DNA from: Candidatus Saccharimonadales bacterium
GTDB taxonomy: Bacteria; Patescibacteriota; Saccharimonadia; Saccharimonadales; EFPC-124
Direction of reading: 5' to 3'
Length of the DNA stretch: 58,771 nt
Assembly: GCA_035457345.1 (NCBI GenBank)
Contig: DATIBT010000032.1
Span: 1 to 58,771, forward strand
Below, piece by piece: positions 8,194 through 53,144 of the stretch. A program made the position numbers and the translations under genes. Numbering within the stretch: the stretch's first letter is position 1; each line of letters opens with the position of its first letter. The notes below the pieces were generated by a model, which was given only the letters and a program-made list of their open reading frames with translations, was not told the origin of the DNA and made no database searches.

Positions 8194-8689
8194 TCACTTT
8201 GTAGTGTAGCAATATTGTTTGGTCGCCAATGTCTTTGCAAGTGAGCAAAGTGAGGTTGCGGTGAATGGGCTGATTGAATAACGGCACGCCTGCACCAAAA
8301 ACGGTCGGATGGACGGTCAGGAATAATTCGTCAACTAAGTTTGCCTCGAGAAATTGACCGTACACTGTTGAACCGCCGCAGACGGCAAGCTGCTCCACGC
8401 CTTCGTCCCGCAAACGCGAGACAAGGGCTGCAGGAGATTCACTAGTGGGCTCAATGCCCTCAAGCGTAATCGATTGCGGCTGCGTTGTCAGTACAATAGT
8501 GCGCCTGCCGGGCAACGCCCGGTTGAATGTTTCGAACGTCGTACGGCCAAAGACCGTGACGCCCGCGTCTTTTGTAGTTTTAACAAAAAAGCGTTTATCG
8601 GCCTGGGTACTCCATTCGAGTGACGAATGAGTTTTGTCTGCGCCTATAAACCCATCAGCAGTTACGGCGGCGATAATAAATACTTTCAT
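8186..8689 (-). CDS. dihydrofolate reductase-like protein (RibD C-terminal domain family)
   Basis: 167 aa. 'MKVFIIAAVTADGFIG...FGRTTFETF...CGGSTVYGQFL' follows the RibD_C/DHFR-like pattern. It lies in the same neighbourhood as thyA. Confidence 0.7.
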   Translation of the reverse strand: MKVFIIAAVTADGFIGADKTHSSLEWSTQADKRFFVKTTKDAGVTVFGRTTFETFNRALPGRRTIVLTTQPQSITLEGIEPTSESPAALVSRLRDEGVEQLAVCGGSTVYGQFLEANLVDELFLTVHPTVFGAGVPLFNQPIHRNLTLLTCKDIGDQTILLHYKVIT

Positions 8690-31405: not shown

Positions 31406-32362
31406 GTGAAGCGCCGTTTTTTGCTGTTTACGACATTGTTTTTTATGGCATTGAGTATTCTTTTGGGCGTACTGTACTATCAAAGCTCGACAAAAAACGA
31501 GAGCACCAAATACCCACACCTCGCGAAACGATTATTCCTAGAAGATCCCAACGACGTTCTCATAAACCTAGAACCATTACGGCAAAACGTACGCAAATAC
31601 CTTACCGACACTGGTTTAACCTATAGTTTTTATTTTGAGTACTTATTTACGGGTTCGAATATTCGCGCGGGCGACAGCAACAAGCTCGTGGGCGCATCAC
31701 TCATGAAAATTCCAGTGGTTATGGACCTGTACAAGGCGGCCGAACAGAACAAGATAGATATCAACAAAAAGGTGACCGTCGACAAAGAATCAGTAAACAA
31801 TGATACCGAATTTGGCAACCAGCAACATCTAAAGCCGGGCGATCAAATTAGCTTACGCGATGCCGCCAGAATTGCGTTGACTGAATCGGACAACACGGCA
31901 GCATATATAGTATTCCAAGCGACACAACATTTGCTCGCGCCTGAGGATCAGGCAATCAATAATCTTGATGTAGAGACACAAATTGGCGAAAGCGACAAAG
32001 GCAAATATGCGCTTATTGGCGCTCGCTCGTATTCTTCTTTCTTGAAGTGCCTCTATTATTCCTGTTTTTTGTCGCGTGATCACTCTGAACAGATACTGAG
32101 CGACCTCTCAAAGACAACCGATACCACACGCATCAGGGCTGGCGTGTCCAAAGATACCGAGGTAATCCATAAAATCGGCTCGTTTAGCAATGTCACGCAA
32201 AGCGATTGTGGCATTGTCTATCTCACCAACCGGCGCTACATATTGTGCATTATGCTCGACACCGACGCGCAAACTGCTAATAAACATATACAAAAGATAG
32301 CTGAAATGACGAATGACTATGTCGCCAAAGCGAACTTGACTACTCGACAACCCAATAATTAA
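31406..32362 (+). CDS. class A beta-lactamase-fold serine hydrolase (PBP/beta-lactamase-like), membrane anchored
   Basis: GTG start and an N-terminal TM helix. SxxK 'ASLMK', SDN 'ESDNTAA', and a KTG-like 'HKIGS'. Confidence 0.7.
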   Translation: MKRRFLLFTTLFFMALSILLGVLYYQSSTKNESTKYPHLAKRLFLEDPNDVLINLEPLRQNVRKYLTDTGLTYSFYFEYLFTGSNIRAGDSNKLVGASLMKIPVVMDLYKAAEQNKIDINKKVTVDKESVNNDTEFGNQQHLKPGDQISLRDAARIALTESDNTAAYIVFQATQHLLAPEDQAINNLDVETQIGESDKGKYALIGARSYSSFLKCLYYSCFLSRDHSEQILSDLSKTTDTTRIRAGVSKDTEVIHKIGSFSNVTQSDCGIVYLTNRRYILCIMLDTDAQTANKHIQKIAEMTNDYVAKANLTTRQPNN

Positions 32363-35300
32363 AAGTGATGCTCGCCTCTGGAGGCGGGGGAGCGGCAAAA
32401 GTGATTGCAAAACCACTTGGCGTGCTTTCAACGTAATATTTAAGATCTGCAGCTGCCTGGCTGCTGGGAGTAAGTTGTACTTTGGGCGCCTTGCCGAATG
32501 GCCTGGCAAAGCTTACTGTCAACGCTTTGCCAGCTGCTACATCCTGTCCAACTTTCAGAGTAATGCGGCCCGTAGTGTCATTGCCATCTAGTTGAATGGC
32601 GTGTTCGGCAGTAATGCCTGCGGCAGACTCGGCCGTTGCTTTCGGTGCTGCGCCGGCGGTGGCAACATGGCCTTGGAGGGTTATGTCGTTCTTAAAGACG
32701 ACCTTCTCCACAAATGTAACCAGGCCATAGAACAGGGCGTTACCCTGAAATTCGCTATCACCGCCCACTTTTAGACCACCACCGACGCGTAGGTCGAGGG
32801 CGACGCGACCATTACCGCTCGCATCGAAGCTAAATGCTTCTTTACCTTCATTGGTAAGGCCAAGAACTTTGCCAGCCGGCGAGAGTTTAAGGCTGATATC
32901 ACCGCCATCTGCCGACTCAATAGAATGAGTAGCTAACGTATCAGTTGTCACCTGGGGTGCGGTAATTTCGAGGCCCGCAACTATGCGGTCAGTGAACACC
33001 TCAGAAAGATCTTGTTCGGTTTTAAGGGCTTCTTTTTCACTCATTAAATAGGCGAGAAGGGAAGTGCTGAGGGTATCGCCAGTAACCCCTGAAGTGCCGC
33101 CAAGGGCAACATTAGTTTTCACAAACACAACCGTCATACCTTGGCCAGGCCCATCGAAAGCCGCCATAGCCTGGCCAATAATTTGTCCGGCTTTGGTCGC
33201 TTTCATAGCAACACCAGGCGTAGAGGAAGGGGCGAGTAAGTCACCGGCCTTGATTGGTCCATTCTCTACGGACACAGCAACAGGGGTGCGTCCAGCCAGC
33301 ACAACGGGCGCCGATTTTACATTCTTATCTTCAACCGCTCCAATGACTAACCCTGGCGTAGTTGTAATAATGCCGACCGCCTGTGAATCATATGCTTTAG
33401 TACACTTCTTAACGCCCGCCTGCAAGGTTGCGTCGAGGCACACGACATCACCGGGCTGCAGGTCTTCTTTCGTACCGTACACTTCCGCAAGATCCGCCCC
33501 GGAACCGCGTACCGTCCAAACACGTACCTCGCCGCGCGCTCCAGCGCCACCAGCGCCACCCACCGTACTGCCAGTGTGGGCTGCGCCACCGCCACCGCCA
33601 CCACCACCAGGTGTGCCCCCCGTACCGCCAGCGCCACCTGCACCGCTTGCGTTACTCGCACCGCCACCGCCACCGGAACCGCCCGCCGAATTACCTACAT
33701 TACCCGCGCCGCCGGCGCCACCCGAACCAGTACCGGCCGCACCGCCGTTAATAGCGCCGCCATTTGTCGCGCCGCCGGCGCCACCTGTTCGAACGGTACA
33801 TGTAGTGACGGCACAGCTCCCGCCGCCGCCACCAGCGCCGCCGCCGCGAGCACTGGCACCGCCAGCACCACTGTTGGCACCGCCAGCAGTCGTAGAAGGT
33901 GCACCGCCACCGCCGCCAAAGTTCGCCTGGCCTCCCGCCACAGTACCGGTACCGGCCGTGCCACCGCTACCGCCGCCAAAACCAGAGTTGGCAAGTGCAC
34001 TAGAAGCCGCCGCATGCAGCGGGTTCCCGCCGCCACCAAATGTGGCAGAGCTGGCGTTACTACCGGCGCTCTGACTACCGCCACCGCCGCCACCGCCATT
34101 ACCAGCTGCGCCTGCGCCTGCGCCAAAACCGCCGCCAAAAGCTCGCAAATACACAGTACCGCCGCAACTCGCGGCCGTAGTGAAACAGCTGTTCCCACCA
34201 GCGCCACCATTACCGCCCACAGCGTTATTGCCAGCGGTCCCAGCAGTGCCACCACTGCCAATGGTTACTTCTGCCGAACTACCGATATTCGCCGCTAAAA
34301 ACGTATTTGTCACAAAAGCGCCGCCACCGCCGCCACCGCCGCCCGTACGGGCTGCGGCATTCGAGCCGCCCGCGCCGCCACCACCGCCGGCGCCGCCGCC
34401 CCACATGTCAACAATGATAAGGGCAGCATCGTTCGGCTTAGTGTAGGTACCGCTAGTGGTGAACGTTTCATACTTGTCGCCCGCACCTATGTCAGAGACG
34501 ACACCATTGACACATTTCTTAAGCTTCGTCTCTGAAAGATCGGCAAAAATGCTGTAATTACCAGAGGAACAAGTAGGGTTAGTGTCGGATTCGGTGAACT
34601 CGATACCTTGGTTTGATGTTGTGATACTACTAGCAAAGGTAGTTGCGTCTTGCACGTCTAGTATATCGGCACCGTCTATAACAATGTCATTGCCCGCACC
34701 GCTCGAAGCAACAGTCAAGGCACCCGCAGCCGTTATGCCACCAAGATCAGTAATATTATTACCGTTGAAATCAAGTGCTGTCGAAGAAAAACCGTATTCA
34801 TCACTACCATTCACCTGAACGTTAACGTTCTTGCCCGTCAGCACATTTAATGAAAGATCGCCGGCATTGTCCCTGAATATGGCAACGTCAGTACTTGCCG
34901 GAACGCCGGTGCTTTCGCGGAAAAGGATGTTACTGAGATCAGCCACATCAAAGCCATCGGCATCTATATCTTGCGTCCAGGGCGTCTGCGACCCGCCTCC
35001 ACCGGCCGATGCGCACGTACCGCCAGTAATTATCCCGCCAGTGACTACCTGATTTTGCAAGAACTGTCCGCCAGAGCACGTTGTTGTAGCACCAGAGACG
35101 CCGCCAACCTGATAGCCACCATCTACATTAATAAACGCGGAACCGGCGCCGGTGTTAGTAACGCTAAGGAGGGTGTTTGAGCCGTCTATCAAGTTAAGGG
35201 TTGTCGTGCCGGCTGCAGTACGCTGGATAGTAGCACTATTAATGGTGACTGAGTTACCTTGTAGCGTCAGCGAGCTTGAAGCATTCGTTGAACCAACAGT

Positions 35301-37229
35301 CACCGACTGTGCCGAGCCACTCGCCGTACCAATTTGTATGCTGTGAGCAGTATTGCCATTACCGATGGCAATACTGCCAGCCCCCGTACCCGCCTCAAGC
35401 GTTACTGTATTTGCCGAGTTACCGCTGCCACCAATAGTAATAGCCTGTGTACCAGTAGCACCCGTGTTGCCAATACCGATAGTGTGCGCAGCGTTGTTGG
35501 TGCCAATGTTTATAACGGTGCCGCCACCATTACCCAAATTTAAGTTGGTGGCAGCCTGCACCGAAAGATCACCCGAATCTGTGCTCCATGTACTTGTGGC
35601 GTGCGCAGTAATAGTTAATGCCTGACTGGTCGCAGGTTGAATAACGGCGGTGCTTGCGTTACTAAAGGTAAGGGCGCTTGAGCTAAATGTATTGCCGCTT
35701 ATAGTAGTTGCTGTTAGATTACCAGTTACCGCCGCGCCGCTCGAAGTGACCGACAAACGCGTTGTGCCCGAAACATTCAAGCCAATATTTCCCGAACCGC
35801 TCTGCAGCGTTGTCGCGCTAGCCAGCGCTGTTGATCCGATAGTCACAAGGTTAGAGCCACTCCCGGTAGGGGTGCCAGTACCGATATTAATTGTCTTACC
35901 GCCGGCCGCAGTAGTGTTACCAGTGCCAATGTTTAGAGTGTCCACCGCCGTCGAATCACCGGTGAATAAGTTGAACGTGCGAGCGGCATCCGCAACAATG
36001 TTACCTATATCAACTTGGTTAACACGGTCATAATTAGCAATCTTGAGCGTTGCTGTACCATTGCTCCCTGCGCCGCCAGACAACAAGTTAACGTTGAGGG
36101 TACTGGCCGAACTCTGGCCACTCGCGGCGCTTGCAATATTAACGGTTTGAGTGTTGGTGCTGCTTGGCGCCGTATTTGCTAGGGAGAGGGTAAAGCTGCC
36201 GTTTGAACGACCAATAGTAATTGCAGAACCACCGGTTGTGGCGCCAATATTCACGGCGGCGCTGTTACTCGTAGCGATATTCACTGCGCCGTTAGACGAG
36301 GCGCCAGTGCCGGCATCTATATTTACATCGCCGCCGGTCCGCGAGCCTGAGCCCCCAGTCGCCGCGCCACCCTGTATAACGATCGCCCCGCCCACGACAG
36401 TAGTCGTGCCACTGCCGTCACCGCCCTTCAAAGTAAGAGCTGCACCATTAGACGAAGCGCCAGACGACGTGCCCGGCTGAAACGTCAAGGCCGCGGCAGT
36501 GGTTGTGTCGGCCGTTGTTATATCTTTTGTCAGCCCGCCCGCCAAGGTCACCAAACCGTCATTGCCTACAACTACCACATTTGCGCCGTTCTTTTGGAGT
36601 TGTAAAATGTTGCCGCTCGCGCCTGTCTTGTTTAAAAAGAGCGTGCTGAGCGTGCTGCTATCAGTTTGCACCGCAGTGGGGGCAACTTGTACGAACCTAC
36701 TCCAGTCTAGGCCGCCCAGCTGTTTGGCATTTAAAGCGTACGGAGTTGCAGCCAGCCGACGGAAGGGTAGCATTTCACCATCCCAGCTTGGCGTCCCTGT
36801 ACCGCCAATATTGAGTGACAGCCACAAGGTATCCTGATTCCAATCGACATTTGTACTAAATGGCGTCACCGAACCCAGCTGGACAGAAAAATATCCGTTG
36901 GTGACGGTCACCTTGCTAGAGCCGGTGCGTGTTTCTGTCCATTTAAGCGTGCCACCGCAAGGCGAGGAGCCGCCCGCTTCACAGCCAGTACCATCTTGGT
37001 AGATTTTAAATTCCATGTTGTAGGTGCCATCGGGCACCAACGCGCCTGTACTGTCGAGTAAGCGCGCCTGGTAGTTTACCTGCTCGTTAACCCCCGTCGT
37101 AGCACTCGCTGGCATGGTCGAAAACGAAATGCTTAACAAACTTACAATTCCCCATAAAGCAAAAAGGCCGCCTATGCGGCCGCGCTGAGCAATATATTTG
37201 CCAAATTTAGTAAGTATCACGCCTCTCAT
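32340..37229 (-). CDS. giant secreted fibre/adhesin-like surface protein with internal poly-glycine domain
   Basis: 1629 aa. Signal peptide 'LFALWGIVSLLSISFSTMPASA', about 700 aa of T/S/G/N/A-rich imperfect repeats, a Gly-rich block of about 320 aa, and a globular C-terminal region. No LPXTG or C-terminal TM. Confidence 0.9.
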   Translation of the reverse strand: MRGVILTKFGKYIAQRGRIGGLFALWGIVSLLSISFSTMPASATTGVNEQVNYQARLLDSTGALVPDGTYNMEFKIYQDGTGCEAGGSSPCGGTLKWTETRTGSSKVTVTNGYFSVQLGSVTPFSTNVDWNQDTLWLSLNIGGTGTPSWDGEMLPFRRLAATPYALNAKQLGGLDWSRFVQVAPTAVQTDSSTLSTLFLNKTGASGNILQLQKNGANVVVVGNDGLVTLAGGLTKDITTADTTTAAALTFQPGTSSGASSNGAALTLKGGDGSGTTTVVGGAIVIQGGAATGGSGSRTGGDVNIDAGTGASSNGAVNIATSNSAAVNIGATTGGSAITIGRSNGSFTLSLANTAPSSTNTQTVNIASAASGQSSASTLNVNLLSGGAGSNGTATLKIANYDRVNQVDIGNIVADAARTFNLFTGDSTAVDTLNIGTGNTTAAGGKTINIGTGTPTGSGSNLVTIGSTALASATTLQSGSGNIGLNVSGTTRLSVTSSGAAVTGNLTATTISGNTFSSSALTFSNASTAVIQPATSQALTITAHATSTWSTDSGDLSVQAATNLNLGNGGGTVINIGTNNAAHTIGIGNTGATGTQAITIGGSGNSANTVTLEAGTGAGSIAIGNGNTAHSIQIGTASGSAQSVTVGSTNASSSLTLQGNSVTINSATIQRTAAGTTTLNLIDGSNTLLSVTNTGAGSAFINVDGGYQVGGVSGATTTCSGGQFLQNQVVTGGIITGGTCASAGGGGSQTPWTQDIDADGFDVADLSNILFRESTGVPASTDVAIFRDNAGDLSLNVLTGKNVNVQVNGSDEYGFSSTALDFNGNNITDLGGITAAGALTVASSGAGNDIVIDGADILDVQDATTFASSITTSNQGIEFTESDTNPTCSSGNYSIFADLSETKLKKCVNGVVSDIGAGDKYETFTTSGTYTKPNDAALIIVDMWGGGAGGGGGAGGSNAAARTGGGGGGGGAFVTNTFLAANIGSSAEVTIGSGGTAGTAGNNAVGGNGGAGGNSCFTTAASCGGTVYLRAFGGGFGAGAGAAGNGGGGGGGSQSAGSNASSATFGGGGNPLHAAASSALANSGFGGGSGGTAGTGTVAGGQANFGGGGGAPSTTAGGANSGAGGASARGGGAGGGGGSCAVTTCTVRTGGAGGATNGGAINGGAAGTGSGGAGGAGNVGNSAGGSGGGGGASNASGAGGAGGTGGTPGGGGGGGGAAHTGSTVGGAGGAGARGEVRVWTVRGSGADLAEVYGTKEDLQPGDVVCLDATLQAGVKKCTKAYDSQAVGIITTTPGLVIGAVEDKNVKSAPVVLAGRTPVAVSVENGPIKAGDLLAPSSTPGVAMKATKAGQIIGQAMAAFDGPGQGMTVVFVKTNVALGGTSGVTGDTLSTSLLAYLMSEKEALKTEQDLSEVFTDRIVAGLEITAPQVTTDTLATHSIESADGGDISLKLSPAGKVLGLTNEGKEAFSFDASGNGRVALDLRVGGGLKVGGDSEFQGNALFYGLVTFVEKVVFKNDITLQGHVATAGAAPKATAESAAGITAEHAIQLDGNDTTGRITLKVGQDVAAGKALTVSFARPFGKAPKVQLTPSSQAAADLKYYVESTPSGFAITFAAPPPPEASITFNYWVVE
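33520..34490 (-). repeat. low-complexity GGN-codon tract encoding the poly-glycine domain
   Basis: The + strand reads as runs of GCCACC/GCCGCC/ACCGCC. It encodes 'WGGGAGGGGGAGG...GGGGGGGGAAHTG' and generates a 336-aa Pro-rich shadow ORF on the opposite strand. Confidence 0.85.
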
Positions 37230-37293: not shown

Positions 37294-38184
37294 CTATTTT
37301 GTCAATCGCTTTTTCCACAAAAACCATCCCACAAATGTACCGATGCCTATAGAAGGCAGTGCGATTGCTGACGTCATAAACACAAGCGCAGGCATAGAGA
37401 CGCTTGTGCGCACCTCGCCAAAGGGCGTCCTAATATTCACCGTATCTGGCGAACCGTTCACTACCACCACGAATTGCAAGAAAGCCTCGGTGCCGTCTTT
37501 GTCTGATATCTTAATCTTGATTTGATGCGTCCCAGGCTTAGTAAATAAATGTTCGGCAATAAACAGAACTGCCGTTTGACGGCTTACGAGCGATGTTTCG
37601 CCATCACCCCAATCAACGCTAACTGCATACGGCGGCGTACCACCGGCAAAGCGTATTGGCAGCCGGAACGTTTGATTAATAAACGCACTTTGTAGGGTGT
37701 AGTCATAGTCAAGTTTAAGTTCGAATTTGGCAATGCGCGGCCCAGTTGTATCCACCCCCTCTGGCTGACTGCCTTCAATAGTAGGGGCAATGGGCGGCGT
37801 ATAAAAAACAAGGAGCGGATCAGATTCCGGGCTTGGCTGATTCACTGCATCATATTGTCGGGCTATCAGCGTATTCTTACCCTCTTCTAGATCAATCTGC
37901 AATTCATAGGTGCTATCAGCAAGGCAAGTAGTAGAGCCTGCAAACACCGCATTGCGGAAGATTTTTACTATTAACCCAACCGCGCAGCCACCCTTAATAT
38001 GCATATTCTTTTCAATAGTAGTCGTGCCTGGATCGGGTGAAGTAATGGTTGGGGGAGTCGTTGGCGGCGGCGAAGGCACAACCGCATGGAGCGCCTCGGC
38101 GTACGCCGGCTGGGGCAGGCAAAAATAAGCCGTCAAACCAACAATTAAAAGACCTTTTACCCCTCGCTCCAACAACATATACAT
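37294..38184 (-). CDS. PKD-domain surface protein with C-terminal membrane anchor
   Basis: 296 aa with a signal peptide. PKD signature 'PPYAVSVDWGDGETS...GTHQIKIKISDKDG'. C-terminal TM plus 'WKKRLTK'. It sits 64 nt upstream of the giant gene on the same strand. Confidence 0.75.
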   Translation of the reverse strand: MYMLLERGVKGLLIVGLTAYFCLPQPAYAEALHAVVPSPPPTTPPTITSPDPGTTTIEKNMHIKGGCAVGLIVKIFRNAVFAGSTTCLADSTYELQIDLEEGKNTLIARQYDAVNQPSPESDPLLVFYTPPIAPTIEGSQPEGVDTTGPRIAKFELKLDYDYTLQSAFINQTFRLPIRFAGGTPPYAVSVDWGDGETSLVSRQTAVLFIAEHLFTKPGTHQIKIKISDKDGTEAFLQFVVVVNGSPDTVNIRTPFGEVRTSVSMPALVFMTSAIALPSIGIGTFVGWFLWKKRLTK

Positions 38185-38229
38185 GGTTGCATTGTAGCAT
38201 GAGCGGGATAAGTCGCTTACAATAGCGGC

Positions 38230-38982
38230 ATGGTACGGGCTGTGTTTGCCATCAATGCCGGAAAAATGATAGGTGCCATACTGCTTGCAATAGGAGTGCT
38301 ATTCGCGTATGCGCAACAGGTAGAAGCGATTAGCTCGGGCAGCTACCAAATACGCGAAGATTTTATTGGAGGAGGCGGGGGAGCAGGTGCAAGCTCTTCT
38401 AGTTATCGCGCAAACGATGCGCTTGGTGGCGCGGCTGGCGTCGGTGGTGCGAGCGGCACTATTTTCGGCTCGCAGACCGGCTCCCAAACTGCGGATGAAC
38501 CTGCGCTTTCGTTTGCCGTTACCACAGCGAGCGTTAGCCTTGGCTCGCTTTCTACCTCTTTAACACGAACCGGCACCGCCACATTTAGCGTAGCCAACTA
38601 CACAAGTTACGGTTATATTGTGCAAATGATTGGCTCACCACCGAATAACGGCACACATCCGCTCAGCGGTATGTCGTCGGCCGCCAGTTCGAGCATTGGC
38701 ACGGAGCAATTTGGCATAAATCTGGTAGCCAACACCTCGCCCTCAACCCTGGGCGCAGACCCGCAACAAATCCCGAACGGCAACTTTGGATTCGGTAGCG
38801 CCGCAAGCGGCTACAATACAGCTAACCAATATAAATACGTTGCAGGTGACACCATTGCGTCAGCGCCAAAGAGTTCCGGCCAGACAACATTTACCATCTC
38901 GTTTATTGCAAACATTGCGAATGACACGCCAGGCGGTAGCTATTCTGGCAATCAAACACTGGTAGTTACAGGTACTTATTAG
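38230..38982 (+). CDS. secreted beta-rich surface protein (WxL/CscB-C-like C-terminal domain), paralog 1
   Basis: 250 aa with a signal peptide 'AILLAIGVLFAYAQQVEA'. The C-terminal 'EQFGINL...QYKYVAGDTIAS...PGGSYSGNQTLVVTGTY' is shared with 39733..40782. Confidence 0.65.
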   Translation: MVRAVFAINAGKMIGAILLAIGVLFAYAQQVEAISSGSYQIREDFIGGGGGAGASSSSYRANDALGGAAGVGGASGTIFGSQTGSQTADEPALSFAVTTASVSLGSLSTSLTRTGTATFSVANYTSYGYIVQMIGSPPNNGTHPLSGMSSAASSSIGTEQFGINLVANTSPSTLGADPQQIPNGNFGFGSAASGYNTANQYKYVAGDTIASAPKSSGQTTFTISFIANIANDTPGGSYSGNQTLVVTGTY

Positions 38983-39067
38983 AAATCAGTAAGAAATCTT
39001 ACAAAATGCTTACGCTTTTTCTGTATGAATGCTAAACTAAACTTACTAAATAATAAGGAGGATGGTT

Positions 39068-39625
39068 ATGGGAAAAGTCATGCATCAGCGGTTGGTTAGT
39101 GGTCTTGCGTACACATTAAGTTTACTCGCACTCTTTCTTGGCGTTGCACCAGTAGGCCACGCAAATGCAGCCTCACTGTCACCGCGCAAAGTAACACTCG
39201 GCAGCTCCGCGCCAAGCGCAGTTACCACCCACAAGTTCGAGGTAACAGTCCCGACGACGGCCGATGTTGGCTCGGTACGCTTTTGGTACTGCACAACGGG
39301 TTCAGGCACCTGCACAACTCCTACGGGGCTCAGCACAACAAGCGCCACGCTCGACGCCCAGACGGGGGCTACCGGGTTCACTCTCAATAACAGCACTAAT
39401 GGCCTGCCCTATATCACACGCACAGCCGCCAGTATCAGCAGTGGCACAGCAGTCAGTTATACGTTAGGTAATGTAACCAATCCATCTACGACCAACACTA
39501 CCTTTTACATTCGCATGGCCACCTTTGCTTCGACCGACATTAGCGGTACGGCAATCGACACAGGCAATGTACTCGCCAGTACGGCAACTCCTATAGGCTA
39601 TATTGCAAAAAGATACTTAAGTTAG
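39068..39625 (+). CDS. secreted surface protein, N-domain-only paralog 2
   Basis: AAGGAGG lies 6 nt before the ATG at 39068. Signal peptide ending 'GHANA'. Residues after the signal are visibly homologous to the N-domain of 39733..40782, but the ORF stops before the C-domain. Confidence 0.65.
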   Translation: MGKVMHQRLVSGLAYTLSLLALFLGVAPVGHANAASLSPRKVTLGSSAPSAVTTHKFEVTVPTTADVGSVRFWYCTTGSGTCTTPTGLSTTSATLDAQTGATGFTLNNSTNGLPYITRTAASISSGTAVSYTLGNVTNPSTTNTTFYIRMATFASTDISGTAIDTGNVLASTATPIGYIAKRYLS

Positions 39626-39649
39626 TAAACTGTCTGTTAAATAACTCAC

Positions 39650-39706
39650 AAATTTGTTGACCGCTAAAACGTGCTTATGCTACGCTTAGGTCAACAAATT
39701 TTTATT
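39650..39706 (+). terminator. long-loop hairpin plus T-run between paralogs 2 and 3
   Basis: Perfect 13-bp stem AAATTTGTTGACC/GGTCAACAAATTT with a 26-nt loop, followed by TTTTATT. Confidence 0.55.
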
Positions 39707-39732
39707 GGGTGCGGACCCCAGAGGAGTGGTAA

Positions 39733-40782
39733 ATGACAGCGACAGTGCGACGGATAGGCTTACAAAGATTCTTGTATGGTGCCAGCATTGCGGTTGTCGC
39801 GCTACTTTCTATGCCGTTACCATCTAATGCCGCCCAACTTACCGTCCGTAAGGTGACGCTAGGATCATCTGCAGTGAGCACCTCAACCACGCATAAGTTT
39901 GACTTTACTGTGCCCACTACTGCAAGTGTAGGCTCAATTAAATTCCTATACTGTACCGCCGCATCTGGTACCTGCACAACCCCCGCAGGCCTCACCACCA
40001 CAAGCGCCACCCTGTCCGCACAGACTGGTGCTACCGGCTTTGCCATTAACGCAACGACCAATGGTTCGCCTTATATTACGCGCTCAGCTTCGAGCATCAC
40101 TGCAGCTACGGCAGTCAGCTACACGCTTAGCGGCGTTACCAACCCATCGACAGCAAATGGAACATTCTACATTCGCATTAGTACATATGCCAGTACCGAC
40201 ACGACAGGTGGCACTACAGACTCAGCCGTAGTCGCGGCAAGCACCGGCACACAAATGAATGTCTCTGCATCCGTGGACGAGACATTGACGTTCTGTACGG
40301 GCACCTCAGGCATCACCAGCAGCAGCTGCGCAGGCGCCACTGGTAACAGTATTGACCTTGGGGCGTTGACCTCATCTTCCACCGGCAGCGGCACCTCACA
40401 AATTGGCGTGTCCACAAACGCCAGTGGCGGCTATGTCATCACGGTAAACGGCAACACATTAACCTCCGGGTCAGACACCATCACGGCCCTTGCATCTCAG
40501 GCAGCATCGAGCCAGGGCAATAGCCAATTTGGTATTAATCTCCGCGACAACGCAACGCCAAACGTAGGCACTGACCCACAAGGGTCCGGTACGGCAACGC
40601 CGTCGGCAAACTATAACACTATTGACCAATATCGTTTTGTGACCGGGGACCAGATTGCAAGCAAGAACACTGCGGACAACTTCCGCCTCTTCACTGTGTC
40701 GTACATGGCCAACATAAGCGGCGCTCAACCAGCCGGATCGTACGCAACAAGCCTAACCTACATTGTCACTCCTACGTTCTAG
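39733..40782 (+). CDS. secreted two-domain surface protein, paralog 3
   Basis: 349 aa. GAGGAG RBS and a signal peptide ending 'SNA'. The N-domain resembles paralog 2; the C-domain 'SQFGINL...QYRFVTGDQIAS...PAGSYATSLTYIVTPTF' resembles paralog 1. Confidence 0.7.
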   Translation: MTATVRRIGLQRFLYGASIAVVALLSMPLPSNAAQLTVRKVTLGSSAVSTSTTHKFDFTVPTTASVGSIKFLYCTAASGTCTTPAGLTTTSATLSAQTGATGFAINATTNGSPYITRSASSITAATAVSYTLSGVTNPSTANGTFYIRISTYASTDTTGGTTDSAVVAASTGTQMNVSASVDETLTFCTGTSGITSSSCAGATGNSIDLGALTSSSTGSGTSQIGVSTNASGGYVITVNGNTLTSGSDTITALASQAASSQGNSQFGINLRDNATPNVGTDPQGSGTATPSANYNTIDQYRFVTGDQIASKNTADNFRLFTVSYMANISGAQPAGSYATSLTYIVTPTF

Positions 40783-40822
40783 CGTTCCATAACAATAGAG
40801 TTTCCTGTACAATCCTAAGTTA

Positions 40823-41854
40823 ATGAACGGTCGCAAATCTCGTCATGTAGCTGGCCTACTCCTGGGAGTGTTCCTCCTTGGATTAGCAATGCAGACACTC
40901 ATTACTGCGAGGCCTGCGGCAGCAGAGGCGGGGCAAGCCTTCTCTATATCACCGCCACTCATTGAGCTAAAAGCCGACCGCGGGCAAACTGTCACAACCA
41001 AGATTAGGCTTACTAACGTATCGAACGATGAGCTACTCATAAAAGTGCAGTTCAACGATTTTGGCGCCAAAGATGAAACAGGCGCCCCAAATATTATCTT
41101 TGACGACACAAAGGGCACAACGTACTCACTGCGCAATTGGATTGGCAGTCCCGCCCCCTTCAAGGTCAAAAGCAAAGAGACAAAAACAGTCGAGTTTCCC
41201 ATACAAGTACCCAAAGACGCCGAACCAGGCGGGCACTACGCAACCATCCGCTTTACAGGTACCAGCACGGCCATAGAAGACAGTGGCGTCGCGCTTAACG
41301 CCAGTATCGGCGCCTTAGTGCTCATGCAGGTCGCAGGTGACATTAAAGAAGATGCCGCTATTGCCGACTTCTTCAGCACCGCCTCTTCGTCACAGACGAA
41401 CTTCTTTGAAAGTGCACCCATAGGTTTCGTTGAACGAATAAAAAACAACGGTAATGTGCATATTAAGCCGACTGGGGTTATTGAAGTTAAAAACATGTTT
41501 GGCAGCACAATCGCCACGCTACGGGTCAACGGCGATACTAAAGATCAAAAAGACCAGCCAAAGAGTATTCTGCCACAAAGTATACGACGCTTTGAGCAAA
41601 CACTATCAAACCAATGGCTCTTTGGCTCCTACACAGCCACGCTCAAACTGCACTATGGACAGGGCGGCAAAGAGATTACCGCCACCACGACCTTTTGGGT
41701 TATCCCTTACAAACTTATCATTCTTGGTTTAGTTGGCCTGACGGCACTCATAGTTATACTGCGTTTTGGCATGCGTCGCTATAAGCAGAAGATTTTAGCC
41801 GAAGCACGCGGAGAATCGTTCGGCAAAAAGCCGCTCAAAAAAATAAAGCGCTAA
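40823..41854 (+). CDS. DUF916/CscA-like Ig-fold surface protein with C-terminal TM anchor
   Basis: 343 aa. Signal peptide, 'FSISPPLIELKADRGQTVTTKIRLTNVSNDELLIKV...EPGGHYATIRF', and a C-terminal TM 'LIILGLVGLTALIVIL' followed by a basic tail. Confidence 0.65.
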   Translation: MNGRKSRHVAGLLLGVFLLGLAMQTLITARPAAAEAGQAFSISPPLIELKADRGQTVTTKIRLTNVSNDELLIKVQFNDFGAKDETGAPNIIFDDTKGTTYSLRNWIGSPAPFKVKSKETKTVEFPIQVPKDAEPGGHYATIRFTGTSTAIEDSGVALNASIGALVLMQVAGDIKEDAAIADFFSTASSSQTNFFESAPIGFVERIKNNGNVHIKPTGVIEVKNMFGSTIATLRVNGDTKDQKDQPKSILPQSIRRFEQTLSNQWLFGSYTATLKLHYGQGGKEITATTTFWVIPYKLIILGLVGLTALIVILRFGMRRYKQKILAEARGESFGKKPLKKIKR

Positions 41855-43075
41855 TCACTGCTTCTTAAGTAGTTCTTGCAACGTGGCGTAGACTTGCTTT
41901 CGGCTACCGTCTTTTCTAAAGATGCCAAAGAAGTTTTCGTTATCAGCCTTATCTGTCCCTAAATCTTTGTAGCTATACCAGAACATACCAGCCATCCAGG
42001 GCGATTGCTCAACATACGTCGCTGCTTGCTGTGCAGACAGCGACAACGCGTCTTCGGTGAGATGGTATGGTTGCTGGCCTTCAACATAACCCTGCGTGCT
42101 AGCTACGCCACCTGGACCATCGGTAGGTGCGCCAAATTCTGTTATCCAAATCAGTTTATTGACATCGCCGTTATCGGTCATAATACTACGGAGACTGGGC
42201 TTAAGGGCGCTAATTTTTGACCACCCACTCCACGCACGGACGGTATTTGGCATTGCCGGGTATGAATAGGCATGGTATCCCAGCGAATCAAAGTAGGGTT
42301 TAGCGCCTGCGGCGTACATTTGCTTAAGGAAGGTAAGCTGTTCAATACTATTAGGATTATCATCGAGCGAGCTAATGCCGCCCGAAATAACCTGCGACAT
42401 AGGATCGGCAAGCTTTATTTGCGCATACGCCTCTTTCAAAAAACGCGTATAGGCAGCGGCATTTGCTTTTGGCCCCCAAAATCCAGCAAGGTTTGGCTCA
42501 TTCCAAATCTCCCAAGTATGAACCCCTTTGGGCGCATACCGCGCAACTACTTGCTTAACATATTTACCGTAGGCCGCAGAGCTGGCCGGGGCGCAACCAT
42601 CGTCGGTACAACCATTGGCACGGGCCCAGGGTGGAGTGCGCGTCAATACAGCGAGAATTTTAATATTATGCGCCTTGGCAGCCTCCACTACACGGTCGTA
42701 CTGGTACCAGTCCCATTTGTTGGCGTTTTCAGGCTGCAGCGCCCACCAGTCAAAATCGGTGCGCAGCCAACCAAAACCAATGGTGGCAATATCGGTCATT
42801 TGTTTGTTGAGTTCTGCATCGCTTAGGCCGCGTAACGTGTCGCCAAATGCCACACCGTAACTGGCGGGCTGGGCAATAGGAAGAGCAATCTGCTTAGTGT
42901 TTGGTTTTGCCACCACCTGACGGACCGGCTCCTTCTTATTCGACTCTAAAAACTGGGTAATTGGTGGTGTTGCCACCATGGCCAAGAGAGCCACAACGAC
43001 GCCTAAAATAATAACATCGTGCAACAGCGTTACGGCATGCTTACGCAGGTGAGGTCTTTGCTTTTTCATCCACAT
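41855..43075 (-). CDS. clan GH-A glycoside hydrolase (GH5/GH39, PslG-like), membrane anchored
   Basis: 406 aa with an N-terminal TM. Acid/base motif 'HTWEIWNEPN' and nucleophile motif 'LIWITEFG'. Confidence 0.8.
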   Translation of the reverse strand: MWMKKQRPHLRKHAVTLLHDVIILGVVVALLAMVATPPITQFLESNKKEPVRQVVAKPNTKQIALPIAQPASYGVAFGDTLRGLSDAELNKQMTDIATIGFGWLRTDFDWWALQPENANKWDWYQYDRVVEAAKAHNIKILAVLTRTPPWARANGCTDDGCAPASSAAYGKYVKQVVARYAPKGVHTWEIWNEPNLAGFWGPKANAAAYTRFLKEAYAQIKLADPMSQVISGGISSLDDNPNSIEQLTFLKQMYAAGAKPYFDSLGYHAYSYPAMPNTVRAWSGWSKISALKPSLRSIMTDNGDVNKLIWITEFGAPTDGPGGVASTQGYVEGQQPYHLTEDALSLSAQQAATYVEQSPWMAGMFWYSYKDLGTDKADNENFFGIFRKDGSRKQVYATLQELLKKQ

Positions 43076-43145: not shown

Positions 43146-44417
43146 GTGAAAGAGAAGTTAACCCAACTGCGCCAAGACAGCTTGGTGCAGAATTCATTTT
43201 ATCTGATGGTATCTACGGCTGTTATGGCGGCCTTAGGCTTTTTGTTTTGGCTCATTGCCGCAAGACTGTTCAGCCAAGACGACATTGGCATTGCCACTAC
43301 CCTTATATCGGCCATGACACTCATTTCTTACATTGGGTTGCTTGGATTTAACAGTACTCTTATACGCATCCTGCCAAAGTCACAAAAACGCAGCCAAGAG
43401 ATTAATACGGCGCTCTTGCTTTCCACAAGCGCAGCCACAGTAGTTGCAACAATCTACGTATTGGTTATCCCACTACTTGCACCAGGGCTAAGCCTAGTGC
43501 GCGACAATGTGCTCTACGCCCTTGGATTTATCTTGTTAGTGGCGCTCGCCTGCATTAATTTACTGACGAGTAGCATCTTTATTGCTTTCCGGGCCGCAAA
43601 ATATAACCTGCTCATCGACGGCACCATAATGAGCCTCACCAAACTTGCCCTTCCCTTTGCGCTCGTGGGTCTTGGTGCATTTGGCCTGTTTGGCGCAGCT
43701 GGCTTGGGTGCGGCAGCGGCACTCATTGCCAGCATGTATTTTTTGACTAAAAAGTTTAATTACAAACCCCGTATTCAAATCGACACCGCAATGGTTCGTG
43801 ACGTGTGGAAATATTCTTTTTCCAATTACGCCGCAAACCTGCTCAATATTGCGCCGACTCTTATTCTGCCTCTCGTCGTATTAAACCACCTAGGCGCCGC
43901 TGCAGCGGGCTACTACTATCTTGGCTCAATGGTCGCCAATTTGCTCTACACGGTTGTCTACGCAGTGGCGCAATCACTTTTTGCTGAAGGTTCGTATGCC
44001 GACAAAACCTTGCGAGAACTCATTAAACGCTCTTCACTGGTTATTGCTGCTATCATGATCCCTGCCGTGACCGTCATGTATGTTGGCGCGAATTTCATGC
44101 TGACTATTTACGGCCCTAGCTATGCCGCTAACGCCACCGAACTTTTGCAAGTACTTGCACTAGCCGGGCCATTCGTGGCGGTATATACCATAGTTAACGT
44201 CCTGCTACGCATTACTAAGCTAACCAAGCAAATCATTATCATAGATGTCATTTACATGATTGTCATTGCCGGCCTCGCCGAACTGTGGGCAAAGAACGGT
44301 CTGGTGTGGGTGGGATACGCCTGGATTATTGGCAATGGCGTGTCAGGACTTGCTGGCCTATGGTTTTTGTGGCGCCACCGCCACGATAAAAAAGTTGCGG
44401 CAGCGGCTACTTTATAA
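43146..44417 (+). CDS. Wzx-type oligosaccharide flippase (MOP superfamily)
   Basis: 423 aa with about 12 TM helices. The N-terminal 'NSFYLMVSTAVMAALGFLFWLIAARLFS' is typical of polysaccharide biosynthesis flippases. GTG start. Confidence 0.75.
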   Translation: MKEKLTQLRQDSLVQNSFYLMVSTAVMAALGFLFWLIAARLFSQDDIGIATTLISAMTLISYIGLLGFNSTLIRILPKSQKRSQEINTALLLSTSAATVVATIYVLVIPLLAPGLSLVRDNVLYALGFILLVALACINLLTSSIFIAFRAAKYNLLIDGTIMSLTKLALPFALVGLGAFGLFGAAGLGAAAALIASMYFLTKKFNYKPRIQIDTAMVRDVWKYSFSNYAANLLNIAPTLILPLVVLNHLGAAAAGYYYLGSMVANLLYTVVYAVAQSLFAEGSYADKTLRELIKRSSLVIAAIMIPAVTVMYVGANFMLTIYGPSYAANATELLQVLALAGPFVAVYTIVNVLLRITKLTKQIIIIDVIYMIVIAGLAELWAKNGLVWVGYAWIIGNGVSGLAGLWFLWRHRHDKKVAAAATL

Positions 44418-53132: not shown

Positions 53133-53144
53133 GGCTATCTAAAA

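What the first reader, a model, noticed from the sequence alone, without database searches (positions are those of the whole stretch)
37294..41854. Csc/WxL-like cell-surface complex locus divergent from the giant protein operon
Four + strand genes encode three signal-peptide proteins rich in T/S/A/G beta-strands and a 343-aa protein. The 343-aa protein has an N-terminus (FSISPPLIELKADRGQTVTTKIRLTNVSNDELLIKV...AEPGGHYATIRF) and a C-terminal TM plus basic tail that match the DUF916/CscA architecture. Two of the secreted proteins end in '..GSYSGNQTLVVTGTY' and '..GSYATSLTYIVTPTF'. These resemble the terminal strand of WxL (CscB/CscC) and of SCPU/archaic-pilin domains, but without the Trp. Established knowledge: Csc clusters (a DUF916 anchor protein plus WxL proteins) were described in lactobacilli and enterococci as non-covalent surface complexes. 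A Trp-less version placed head-to-head (45-nt divergent spacer) with a PKD-anchor plus giant-fibre operon suggests one integrated surface apparatus. It could be an anchored Ig-fold, chaperone-like protein presenting or polymerising beta-sandwich subunits in a monoderm that lacks an usher.
Basis: partly seen in the sequence, partly recalled or inferred. Interest (0 to 1): 0.7.

Follow-up and report, generated by a model that had tools for sequence, protein, structure and literature searches.

The report
Compact Pam pilus operon of Saccharibacteria

Summary
Four + strand genes (38230-41854) sit head-to-head, across 45 nt, with a membrane-anchored Ig/PKD-like protein gene and a 1629-aa fibre protein gene. 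NCBIfam names them: PamT tip subunit (304 bits, above cutoff), a two-domain pilin with the Pam pilin C-domain (E 4e-54), and a PamR-like anchor (E 8e-65). This is the CPR 'Pam pilus', solved by cryo-EM in Ca. Mycosynbacter amalyticus (bioRxiv 10.64898/2026.03.03.709456). It is a donor-strand-exchange filament assembled by membrane-anchored PapD-like chaperones without an usher. The gene set is syntenic in 66 of 80 related loci.

Evidence: 26 of 35 family members hit PF06030; hhalign against genuine WxLIPs gives 96.4% (E 1e-9); the best PDB fold match is E. faecium WxLIP. The 'Trp-less WxL' call for the secreted proteins fails: no Pfam hit, hhalign not significant. The PamT fold best matches chaperone-usher pilins (PapG pilin domain, Csu, FimG).

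Two points go beyond the preprint. The Pam chaperone links to WxLIP. A conserved 185-aa pilin paralog has only the N-terminal domain and is under purifying selection.

Verdict: new member of a known kind, moderate interest.

The parts
32340..37229 (-). 1629-aa secreted giant fibre-like protein, downstream of the PamR-like gene on the - strand. It is a conserved neighbour of pam loci (the 'tail fibre-like protein' of the preprint). It carries no Pam pilin C-domain.
   Evidence: ORF. No Pfam or NCBIfam family. Its N-terminal ~230 aa are 48-78% identical to a protein encoded next to pam genes in 19 of 80 related loci, always in the order PamR then giant. The preprint notes a tail fibre-like protein at the centre of the neighbourhood network.
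37294..38184 (-). PamR-like anchor: signal peptide, Pro/Thr-rich stretch, two Ig/PKD-like domains and a C-terminal TM helix. It is the proposed terminator and membrane tether of the pilus.
   Evidence: NCBIfam NF058578 CPR_pilus_PamR: E 8.4e-65, 218.6 bits, below the 300-bit equivalog cutoff. Weak PKD Pfam hits. Hydrophobic segment 263-286. A PamR-like gene is present in 62 of 80 related loci.
38185..38229 (.). 45-nt divergent intergenic spacer between the PamR-like gene and pamT.
38230..38982 (+). PamT: tip-type subunit. Signal peptide, a Gly/Ser-rich region predicted disordered, then a single pilin C-domain (an incomplete Ig-like fold). It has no N-terminal domain and no linker strand.
   Evidence: NF058579 CPR_pilus_PamT equivalog: E 5e-91, 304 bits against a 240 cutoff. 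AF2 model: residues 90-250 confident, 29-88 disordered. Best PDB fold matches are the PapGII pilin domain, Csu pilus, FimG, CfaB and PapA/PapH.
39062..39625 (+). Pilin paralog with only the N-terminal domain (185 aa from 39068). It has a signal peptide and the pilin N-terminal beta-sandwich, then stops before the linker strand and C-domain. It is not described in the Pam preprint.
   Evidence: 60% identical to residues 7-175 of the 349-aa pilin. Same-length orthologs of 185 aa, 79% and 74% identical, lie in the same T-N(-P-C) order in two other assemblies. Against the L201 ortholog, pN is 0.216 with synonymous sites saturated, similar to PamT and the chaperone. No NCBIfam or Pfam family.
39733..40782 (+). 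Two-domain Pam pilin, the likely major subunit. Signal peptide, N-terminal beta-sandwich (about 31-178), linker or donor strand (about 179-200, QMNVSASVDETLTF...), then pilin C-domain (203-349). Two Cys pairs.
   Evidence: NF058581 CPR_Pam_pilin_C: E 4.2e-54, 182.7 bits against a 55 cutoff, residues 203-349. The domain layout matches PamA/PamB/PamE as described from cryo-EM. One to five such genes lie directly upstream of the chaperone in 66 of 80 related loci.
40823..41854 (+). Membrane-anchored two-Ig-domain chaperone (PamC/PamD class) and a remote homolog of WxLIP (DUF916-DUF3324-TM, CscA-like).
   Evidence: AF2 model: pLDDT 84.6, two beta-sandwich domains plus helix 296-329. Foldseek hits: WxLIP 9i1y/9i25 (E 3e-9), then the CfaA, CsuC, Caf1M and FaeE chaperones. 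PF06030 in 26 of 35 members. hhalign to WxLIP 96.4%. The family has 10,573 clusters at 50% identity with E<=1e-3.

Best explanation
The locus is a compact pam (CPR 'Pam pilus') gene cluster of a Saccharimonadia bacterium.

Proposed mechanism:
1. All products are exported by Sec.
2. The 343-aa protein stays tethered in the cytoplasmic membrane by its C-terminal helix. It acts as a PapD-like chaperone: a strand from it fills the open groove of the incomplete Ig-like C-domain of each newly exported subunit.
3. PamT has a C-domain only and cannot donate a strand, so it nucleates the distal tip.
4. The 349-aa pilin donates the linker strand between its two domains into the C-domain groove of the preceding subunit. 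This displaces the chaperone (donor-strand exchange), so the fibre grows from its base without an usher or an outer membrane.
5. The divergently encoded PamR-like protein inserts its N-terminal strand into the last pilin and anchors the fibre through its own TM helix.
6. The giant fibre protein encoded downstream of PamR is a co-inherited surface partner with an undefined role.
7. The conserved N-domain-only paralog is an accessory of unknown role. It might be a non-extendable cap or a competitor for the N-domain interface.

What is shown here: gene identities, domain architectures, predicted folds, synteny, and the chaperone's remote homology to WxLIP.
What is shown elsewhere: donor-strand-exchanged filaments of homologous PamA/PamB, by cryo-EM.
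What is inferred: every assembly step in this organism, the order of subunits, and the roles of PamR, the giant protein and the N-domain-only protein.
For: - NCBIfam assigns PamT (above the equivalog cutoff), the Pam pilin C-domain (182.7 bits against a 55 cutoff) and a PamR-like protein (E 8e-65).
- The preprint reports 2.8 and 3.6 A cryo-EM filaments of PamA/PamB. They have an N-terminal beta-sandwich, a donated linker strand and a truncated Ig-like C-domain. It also describes TM-anchored PapD/FimC-like chaperones, PamT as tip, PamR as anchor and a conserved tail-fibre-like neighbour.
- The window's proteins show the same architectures.
- The chaperone model is confident. It matches WxLIP and chaperone-usher chaperones in complex with their subunits.
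- The PamT model matches chaperone-usher pilin domains.
- The pilin(s)-chaperone unit recurs in 66 of 80 related loci, and a PamR-like gene in 62 of 80. The window's exact order (G' R' T P C) occurs in 11 loci, and with the N-domain-only gene in L201.
- No usher, sortase or LPXTG signal was seen among the neighbours scanned.
Against: - Nothing was measured in this organism. No complex prediction could be run here.
- The chaperone-exchange pathway, subunit order and PamR anchoring in the preprint are themselves AlphaFold-based models. Only the filament structure is experimental.
- This locus has one chaperone and one full pilin. M. amalyticus has two chaperones and three two-domain pilins.
- The 349-aa pilin matched only the shared C-domain model and, below its cutoff, the PamT model.
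- The PamR-like protein scores below NCBI's equivalog cutoff.
- The chaperone has no NCBIfam model hit.
- The role of the giant protein rests on synteny only.
Confidence: 0.85

Rival explanations
1. A Csc/WxL-type non-covalent surface complex. The DUF916-like protein (WxLIP/CscA) simply holds one small and one large beta-sandwich protein on the cell surface, with no polymerisation into a fibre.
For: - The 343-aa protein is a remote WxLIP homolog.
- The cluster composition parallels WxL clusters: a domain-only protein, a protein with an extra N-terminal domain plus that domain, and a TM-anchored two-Ig protein. The WxL cluster layout is given in PMC10599100.
- AF2, and the title of PDB entry 9i25, indicate that WxLIP binds WxL. 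The AF2 model has a WxLIP strand completing the WxL sandwich.
Against: - The client proteins carry the Pam pilin C-domain, whose homologs form donor-strand-exchanged filaments in cryo-EM.
- There is no similarity to the WxL domain by Pfam or hhalign.
- The PamT fold best matches chaperone-usher pilins, and WxL is not in the top 50.
- The WxLIP hallmark motif is absent, and DUF3324 is not independently detectable.
Confidence: 0.07
2. A horizontally acquired classical chaperone-usher pilus operon whose usher lies outside the region examined.
For: Foldseek matches of the chaperone to CfaA, CsuC, Caf1M and FaeE. Foldseek matches of PamT to the PapG pilin domain, Csu, FimG and PapA.
Against: - No usher-like or other outer-membrane protein was found among the scanned genes of the window.
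- The chaperone is membrane-anchored, unlike periplasmic PapD.
- PapD_N is not significant for the window protein (E 0.13) and is absent from the families matched by the 35 members.
- Every homolog that carries a source name and all but three of the 80 related loci are labelled CPR or left unclassified. The three exceptions (Magnetospirillaceae, Acidoferrum, Streptomyces labels) look like mis-assigned Saccharimonadia sequence.
- The pilins have an extra N-terminal domain and an internal donor strand rather than an N-terminal one.
Confidence: 0.02
3. Unrelated secreted Thr/Ser-rich wall or S-layer proteins that happen to lie next to an Ig-fold membrane protein, with no functional coupling.
For: Low-complexity T/S/A/G-rich composition. 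No Pfam families for three of the four proteins.
Against: Strong family assignments, internal paralogy, conserved order across dozens of genomes, and purifying selection on all five genes.
Confidence: 0.02

Closest known systems
Pam pilus system of Candidatus Mycosynbacter amalyticus (PamA/B/E pilins, PamT, PamC/D chaperones, PamR). Source: bioRxiv 10.64898/2026.03.03.709456; NCBIfam NF058578, NF058579 and NF058581.
   Same: - PamT equivalog.
- Two-domain pilin with the Pam pilin C-domain.
- TM-anchored two-Ig chaperone.
- PamR-like anchor.
- Fibre-like giant neighbour.
- Sec signals on all products.
- No usher.
- CPR (Saccharimonadia) host.
   Different: - Compact set: one chaperone (not two) and one full pilin (not PamA, PamB and PamE).
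- The PamR-giant pair is divergent from the pilin genes rather than co-directional.
- An extra conserved N-domain-only paralog is present.
- No ATP-synthase genes were found among the window ORFs scanned.
- PamR is below the equivalog cutoff.
WxL / Csc clusters of Firmicutes: small WxL, large WxL and WxLIP (DUF916-DUF3324-TM, CscA). Sources: PMC10599100; PDB 9i1y and 9i25.
   Same: - The chaperone is a remote homolog of WxLIP with identical architecture.
- The cluster logic is the same: a domain-only client, a client with added N-terminal domain(s), and one TM-anchored two-Ig protein.
- WxLIP is predicted to complete the WxL sandwich with one of its own strands.
   Different: - The clients show no detectable WxL domain, no Trp-x-Leu motifs and no Pro-rich N-terminal linker.
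- The NQIDKxxxYFDLK motif is missing.
- DUF3324 is not detected on its own.
- The window protein scores below the PF06030 gathering threshold.
- WxL proteins are thought to bind peptidoglycan non-covalently. They are not known to polymerise.
Chaperone-usher pili of Gram-negative bacteria: P and type 1 pili, class 5 CFA/I, archaic Csu (SCPU-type subunits).
   Same: - Two-Ig-domain chaperone fold, with Foldseek matches to chaperone-subunit complexes.
- Subunit with an incomplete Ig-like fold, best matched by the PapG pilin domain, Csu, FimG, CfaB and PapA/PapH.
- Donor-strand complementation and exchange as the assembly principle.
   Different: - No usher and no outer membrane.
- The chaperone is membrane-anchored.
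- The donor strand is an internal linker between two domains, not an N-terminal extension.
- An extra N-terminal domain gives a linear, uncoiled fibre.
- No significant sequence similarity: PapD_N E 0.13, and no PDB sequence hits.

Membership tests
Pam pilus system (CPR) | PamT: single-domain tip subunit (NCBIfam equivalog NF058579) | tested here: met
   250-aa protein: E 5.1e-91, 304.4 bits against a 240 cutoff, full-length match. The model shows one C-terminal beta domain after a disordered region.
Pam pilus system (CPR) | Two-domain pilin: N-terminal beta-sandwich, linker strand, then C-terminal Pam pilin domain (NF058581) | tested here: met
   349-aa protein: NF058581 at 182.7 bits against a 55 cutoff, residues 203-349. 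The N-terminal half is a separate module, duplicated in the 187-aa paralog. The structure of the N-domain and linker was not modelled here.
Pam pilus system (CPR) | Membrane-anchored PapD/FimC-like two-domain chaperone (PamC/PamD) | tested here: met
   AF2 model: two beta-sandwich domains plus C-terminal helix 296-329, pLDDT 84.6. Foldseek probability 1.00 to the CfaA, CsuC, Caf1M and FaeE chaperones. No NCBIfam chaperone model matched, so assignment to PamC or PamD is open.
Pam pilus system (CPR) | PamR: RbmA-like two-domain protein with a C-terminal TM helix (NF058578) | tested here: inconclusive
   E 8.4e-65 but 218.6 bits, below the 300-bit equivalog cutoff. C-terminal hydrophobic segment present. 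This is clear homology, but orthology is not certified.
Pam pilus system (CPR) | Subunits polymerise by donor-strand exchange into extracellular filaments | not testable with these tools
   Shown by cryo-EM only for M. amalyticus PamA/PamB.
Pam pilus system (CPR) | Restricted to CPR/Patescibacteria with a conserved operon context | tested here: met
   Named homologs and related loci are Saccharimonadia, Uhrbacteria or Veblenbacteria MAGs, plus a few records with other labels that look like mis-assigned Saccharimonadia sequence. Pilin-chaperone synteny holds in 66 of 80 loci.
WxLIP / CscA (DUF916-DUF3324-TM) | DUF916 = WxLIP_PGBD domain (PF06030) above the Pfam gathering score | tested here: not met
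   Window protein: 25.5 bits against a 27.3 cutoff, E 1.5e-5. However, 26 of 35 family members hit at E<=0.01, best 1e-7. The N-domain profile against the WxLIP profile gives 94% probability, P 1.2e-7. This is remote, superfamily-level homology, not family membership.
WxLIP / CscA (DUF916-DUF3324-TM) | DUF3324 = WxLIP_HBD domain (PF11797) following DUF916 | tested here: inconclusive
   No PF11797 hit in any of 35 members. The C-domain alone against WxLIP is not significant, P 0.17. The full-length hhalign alignment does run collinearly into the second domain, 226 columns at 96.4%. The model has a second beta-sandwich there.
WxLIP / CscA (DUF916-DUF3324-TM) | Conserved N-terminal motif NQIDKxxxYFDLK | tested here: not met
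   In the hhalign alignment the motif region falls in a gap of the Pam chaperone: 'FSISPPL-----------IELKA' against 'FsV..viPENQIDKxktYFDL'.
WxLIP / CscA (DUF916-DUF3324-TM) | C-terminal transmembrane helix | tested here: met
   Hydrophobic segment 290-318 with a basic tail. AF2 helix 296-329.
WxL cluster (Csc) | At least two adjacent proteins carrying a WxL domain (PF13731) with dual Trp-x-Leu motifs | tested here: not met
   - No PF13731 hit for the window proteins or for 33 PamT-family members at E<=10.
- hhalign of PamT against 17 verified small WxL proteins aligns only the signal peptide, 7%.
- Trimmed broad profiles align only the last strand: 18 columns, P 0.06.
- Global alignment gives nothing.
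- PamT and the pilin contain no Trp.
Chaperone-usher pili | Outer-membrane usher (PF00577) encoded with the chaperone and subunits | tested here: not met
   No usher family among the proteins scanned across the window. Not every ORF of the window was scanned. The preprint also reports no trans-envelope machinery.
Chaperone-usher pili | Subunit with an incomplete Ig-like fold that requires a donated strand | tested here: inconclusive
   The PamT model's best PDB matches are the PapGII pilin domain (E 3e-3, TMt 0.58), Csu, FimG, CS17, CfaB and PapA/PapH. The E-values are weak. The groove itself was not inspected.

The most novel reading that the evidence does not exclude
Pam pili of CPR bacteria and the WxL/Csc clusters of Firmicutes may be two branches of one ancient monoderm system. 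In it, a membrane-anchored two-Ig-domain chaperone (PamC/D = WxLIP/CscA) completes, and hands over, incomplete beta-sandwich clients.

If so, WxLIP would be a donor-strand chaperone rather than a peptidoglycan or host binder. WxL clusters (small WxL plus large WxL) might then assemble tip-plus-stalk oligomers or short fibres by strand exchange.

A smaller novel point is the conserved N-domain-only pilin paralog, which could be a new class of Pam accessory, such as a cap or release factor.

Neither point appears in the Pam preprint. In the searched literature only one paper, a 2013 review, contains both 'WxL' and 'donor strand', each once.
Probability: 0.3. Interest if true: 0.65.

Novelty: new member of a known kind. 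Interest (0 to 1): 0.35.

Why it matters
Pam pili are abundant surface fibres of episymbiotic CPR bacteria and are thought to make first contact with host cells.

This locus shows that the system can run with a minimal parts list: one chaperone, one full pilin, one tip subunit and one anchor. It also shows that the chaperone family is very large, with over 10,000 clusters at 50% identity. That suggests the system may be more widespread than the preprint's genome counts imply.

The chaperone's demonstrable remote homology to WxLIP/CscA links a CPR pilus to a widespread but mechanistically unclear surface-protein system. That system occurs in lactobacilli, enterococci and Listeria. The link gives a concrete, testable hypothesis for what DUF916 proteins do: act as donor-strand chaperones.

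As a discovery in its own right, the locus is no longer new. It was published and given NCBIfam models in 2026.

Tried and rejected
1. **WxL identity of the secreted proteins: rejected.** Tests were Pfam on single sequences and on 33 family members, a PDB profile search, and hhalign against WxL proteins. The WxL proteins came from 80 metagenomic WxL clusters fetched with the DUF916 motif. Only the final strand ('G.Y...lT[YW].[VL]') aligns, and not significantly.
2. **The 187-aa ORF as a decayed pilin fragment: first adopted, then rejected.** I adopted it because none of the 80 genome loci showed an equivalent. I rejected it after finding same-length orthologs in two assemblies with conserved order and low pN. 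Two other short homologs are uninformative: P0258 lies near a contig end, and P0248 has no contig on record.
3. **Sequence searches of the PDB** with the chaperone, the pilin and both profiles gave nothing useful. The PamA/PamB structures are not detectable there by sequence.
4. **Additional pam paralogs elsewhere in the window:** none.
5. **ATP-synthase linkage reported in the preprint:** no ATP-synthase gene among the window ORFs scanned, though it is seen in L202.
6. **Exhaustive representative search with the chaperone profile:** only the top 150 hits are visible, so the taxonomic tail of the family could not be inspected. Firmicutes WxLIPs score at most 28.5 bits against that profile. They are therefore not part of the 10,573.
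7. **Hairpin after the N-domain-only gene:** stable but not conserved in L201, so it was not made part of the model.
8. **C-domain of the chaperone against DUF3324 alone:** not significant.

Full report
**1. Observation**

On the + strand there are four consecutive ORFs:
- 38230-38982 (250 aa)
- 39062-39625 (187 aa; the public gene call is 185 aa from 39068)
- 39733-40782 (349 aa)
- 40823-41854 (343 aa)

On the - strand, a 296-aa gene (37294-38184) starts 45 nt from the first + gene. It is followed by a 1629-aa gene (32340-37229). The quoted peptides are exact.

The three secreted proteins are 50-55% Thr+Ser+Ala+Gly, and each has one N-terminal hydrophobic signal-like segment. PamT and the pilin contain no Trp. 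The 343-aa protein has an N-terminal signal-like segment, a C-terminal hydrophobic helix and a basic tail.

The proteins are modular paralogs:
- The 187-aa protein is 60% identical to the N-terminal half of the 349-aa protein (E 2e-57).
- The 250-aa protein is 38% identical to its C-terminal half (E 6e-23).

The only correction is that coordinate 37294 belongs to the - strand gene.

**2. Identity**

NCBIfam (release of June 2026) names the parts:

| Protein | Model | Result |
|---|---|---|
| 250 aa | CPR_pilus_PamT equivalog | E 5e-91, 304 bits, cutoff 240 |
| 349 aa, residues 203-349 | CPR_Pam_pilin_C domain | E 4e-54 |
| 296 aa (- strand) | CPR_pilus_PamR | E 8e-65, 218.6 bits, below the 300 cutoff |

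[quoted passage not shown] That work reports:
- Filaments of Ca. Mycosynbacter amalyticus solved by cryo-EM at 2.8 and 3.6 A.
- The linker of one subunit fills the C-domain of its neighbour (donor-strand exchange).
- From AlphaFold and Foldseek: PamC and PamD as PapD/FimC-like chaperones with a C-terminal TM helix, PamT as a C-domain-only tip, PamR as an RbmA-like membrane anchor, and no trans-envelope machinery.
- A 'tail fibre-like protein' as a conserved neighbour.

The window therefore carries a pam locus. It has no other pam paralogs.

**3. The 343-aa protein**

Its 409 detectable homologs in the 90%-clustered collection are unnamed or labelled Saccharimonadales, apart from one Magnetospirillaceae-labelled record. 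Several carry a precomputed PF06030 hit.

An exhaustive profile search finds 10,573 clusters at 50% identity with E<=1e-3, and 6,122 with E<=1e-10.

The AlphaFold2 model (35-sequence alignment, pLDDT 84.6) has two beta-sandwich domains and a C-terminal helix, 296-329.

Foldseek against the PDB gives:
- 'WxLIP from Enterococcus faecium' first (9i1y, E 3e-9; 9i25_C, 'bound to long WxL').
- RbmA.
- The chaperone-usher chaperones CfaA, CsuC, Caf1M and FaeE, mostly as chaperone-subunit complexes.

By sequence:
- The window protein hits Pfam WxLIP_PGBD (DUF916, PF06030) at E 1.5e-5, 25.5 bits, just under the 27.3 gathering score.
- 26 of 35 family members hit PF06030 at E<=0.01. None hits PapD_N or DUF3324.

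To test this properly I fetched genuine WxL clusters from metagenomes. I used the published DUF916 motif NQIDKxxxYFDL (PMC10599100; scan). I extracted their WxLIP and WxL proteins and verified examples with Pfam: WxL E 5e-72; WxLIP_PGBD plus WxLIP_HBD E about 1e-42 to 1e-54.

Results of the comparison:
- Pam-chaperone alignment against 14 WxLIPs: 96.4% probability, E 1.2e-9, over 226 collinear columns spanning both domains.
- N-domain alone: 94%, P 1.2e-7.
- C-domain alone: not significant.
- Reversed-sequence and cross controls: P 0.006-0.19.
- Reciprocal HMMER: a WxLIP profile hits 26 of 35 Pam chaperones at E<1e-3. The Pam profile scores WxLIPs at up to 28.5 bits.

The WxLIP hallmark motif falls in a gap of the Pam proteins.

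Conclusion: the protein is a PamC/D-class chaperone and a remote, superfamily-level homolog of WxLIP/CscA. It is not a member of the Pfam family by its own threshold.

**4. The secreted proteins**

The PamT model is confident for residues 90-250 and disordered for 29-88. Its best PDB matches are the pilin domain of PapGII in complex with PapD (2wmp_B, E 3e-3, TM 0.58 on the target), the archaic Csu pilus, FimG, CS17, CfaB, PapA and PapH. No WxL chain appears in the top 50.

WxL membership fails every sequence test:
- No PF13731 hit in the window proteins or in 33 PamT-family members at E<=10.
- hhalign of PamT against 17 small WxL proteins aligns only the signal peptides.
- A broad trimmed C-domain profile (37 non-redundant pilin and PamT C-domains) against 29 WxL domains aligns only the last strand: 'i....aG.Yt.t.Tyi' against 'VP....Y...ltW.L', 18 columns, P 0.06, probability 0.9%.
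- A forced global alignment gives nothing.

**5. Synteny**

A scan of one genome per species returned 194 loci encoding a relative of the chaperone. The best 80 were analysed. By tblastn with the window's proteins:
- 66 of 80 have one to five two-domain pilin genes directly upstream of the chaperone.
- 62 of 80 have a PamR-like gene.
- 42 of 80 have a second, divergent chaperone.
- 18 have a detectable PamT.
- 19 have the giant protein's N-terminal domain, always in the order PamR then giant.

The window's arrangement is giant and PamR divergent from PamT, pilin(s) and one chaperone. It occurs in 11 loci, including its closest relatives (L001-L005, L007-L011, L015).

**6. The 187-aa gene**

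None of the 80 loci showed an N-domain-only gene at this position, so I first read it as a truncated remnant. A direct search overturned that. It found orthologs of exactly 185 aa, 79% and 74% identical, ending at the same point with a similar tail...ASTATPIG[YL][ILV]..R.

One ortholog lies in a 191-kb Saccharimonadia contig with this order (L201):
- fibre protein (657 aa, - strand)
- PamR-like (293 aa, - strand)
- PamT (248 aa)
- N-domain-only protein (185 aa)
- pilin (349 aa)
- chaperone (327 aa)

The other ortholog follows a PamT gene on a short contig.

Between the window and L201, synonymous sites are saturated (pS 0.72-0.82). Non-synonymous divergence compares as follows:

| Gene | pN |
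|---|---|
| N-domain-only | 0.216 |
| PamT | 0.238 |
| chaperone | 0.265 |
| PamR | 0.318 |

So it is a maintained gene in a subclade, with a signal peptide and the pilin N-domain. It has no acceptor C-domain and at most a stub of the donor linker. Its role is unknown. A non-extendable cap or a competitor for the N-domain interface are speculations.

**7. Mechanism, and what is shown versus inferred**

- Shown here: identities, architectures, folds, synteny, selection, and the chaperone-WxLIP homology.
- Shown elsewhere: homologous PamA/PamB form donor-strand-exchanged filaments.
- Inferred: that here the 343-aa chaperone caps the C-domain groove of PamT and of the 349-aa pilin at the membrane; that the pilin linker displaces it to extend the fibre from the base; that PamR terminates and anchors it; and that the giant protein is a functional partner.

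Weak points:
- One chaperone and one pilin here, against two and three in the model organism.
- PamR is below the equivalog cutoff.
- No multimer prediction was possible.

**8. Comparison and novelty**

The locus is a member of the Pam pilus kind, in a compact variant with an extra N-domain-only gene. It works like a chaperone-usher pilus without the usher. It is not a WxL/Csc cluster by membership.

The preprint never mentions WxL, DUF916 or Csc. Only one paper in the searched library, a 2013 review, contains both 'WxL' and 'donor strand', each once.

The WxLIP literature describes three points that parallel the Pam system:
- WxLIP is a two-Ig-domain, TM-anchored protein.
- Its hairpin strand is predicted to complete the WxL sandwich.
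- Clusters contain one small (domain-only) WxL protein, one large (N-terminal domains plus WxL) WxL protein and one WxLIP.

This is the same logic as PamT, pilin and chaperone. That paper interprets the TM helix as inserting into host membranes. The Pam parallel suggests a bacterial-membrane-anchored chaperone instead.

This is the most novel reading left open. The chaperone homology is well supported. Homology of the clients is not.

**9. Verdict**

The system is already described and has curated models, so the finding is a new member of a known kind. Residual interest lies in the Pam-WxLIP link and the N-domain-only paralog.

Noticed in passing
window 39650-39701 (between the N-domain-only gene and the pilin gene): A perfect 13-bp stem (AAATTTGTTGACC ... 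GGTCAACAAATTT) runs into a T-rich tail. The 90-nt context folds at -24.7 kcal/mol, z -4.2 against shuffles. It could be a terminator or attenuator that sets the ratio of upstream to downstream pam transcripts. The ortholog locus L201 has no equivalent at 8559-8647.
   Followed up: partly
L078 20-6394 (Candidatus Uhrbacteria, MGEK01000004.1): A 2124-aa repeat-rich giant protein ends in a full-length but divergent Pam pilin C-domain (NF058581, E 1.2e-6, positions 3-148 of 148; C-terminus ...AGPYQTTIIYIVTPQF). It lies next to two Pam-type chaperones and a 422-aa pilin-like protein. This looks like a giant tip adhesin fused to a pilin domain, analogous to 'large WxL' proteins or FimH/PapG. The window's own giant protein has no such domain.
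   Followed up: partly
L201 4202-6175 (- strand); window 32340-37229: In L201 the fibre protein next to PamR is only 657 aa. It has a precomputed PF22237 SO2946-like_C hit and a weak match to the N-terminal domain of Bdellovibrio 'mosaic adhesive trimer' fibre proteins (NF053851, E 6.5e-5). The window's 1629-aa version shares the conserved N-terminal ~230 aa but matched no family. Its middle is Gly/Ala/Ser/Thr low-complexity sequence.
   Followed up: partly
P0192; L002 and L022: Saccharimonadia-type pam genes appear in records labelled Streptomyces caniscabiei (PamT homolog on a 957,675-bp contig), Magnetospirillaceae bacterium and Candidatus Acidoferrum sp. These are probably a co-cultured or co-assembled Saccharibacteria genome and mis-binned contigs, rather than real occurrences outside CPR.
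   Followed up: no
window 41855-43075 (-), 43146-44417 (+), 44407-53873 (-), 23946-25412 (+): The pam locus is flanked by several surface-sugar genes:
- a membrane-anchored GH5-like glycosidase
- a multi-pass membrane protein with no family hit
- a run of GT4 and GT2 glycosyltransferases
- a DUF2206 membrane protein
- further upstream, a PMT_2-type glycosyltransferase

The pilins are Thr/Ser-rich, and the preprint saw a modification on PamA Ser356. These could be pilin-glycosylation or wall-polysaccharide genes. The GH5 neighbour is conserved in L003.
   Followed up: partly
L202 1-1925 (JGI Ga0558060_0000535): ATP synthase gamma, beta and epsilon genes lie a few kb from pam genes in this locus, as the preprint reports for many CPR genomes. 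No ATP-synthase gene was found among the window ORFs scanned; its neighbours are dnaX, dnaB, recR, cysS and an nrnA-like gene.
   Followed up: partly
window 31406-32362 (+) against 32340-37229 (-): A class A beta-lactamase / DD-peptidase-like gene overlaps the 3' end of the giant protein gene by 23 nt in convergent orientation. The same beta-lactamase-like neighbour sits next to the fibre gene in L201.
   Followed up: no
window 38230-38982, residues ~34-60 of PamT; alignment A2: After the signal peptide, PamT proteins share a conserved motif, S.NYQI.EDF.GGGG...SSS.NY, inside the region AlphaFold leaves disordered. The giant protein starts its mature part with a similar '...VNYQARL...'. The motif could be a strand-like interaction element, but it was not examined.
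   Followed up: no
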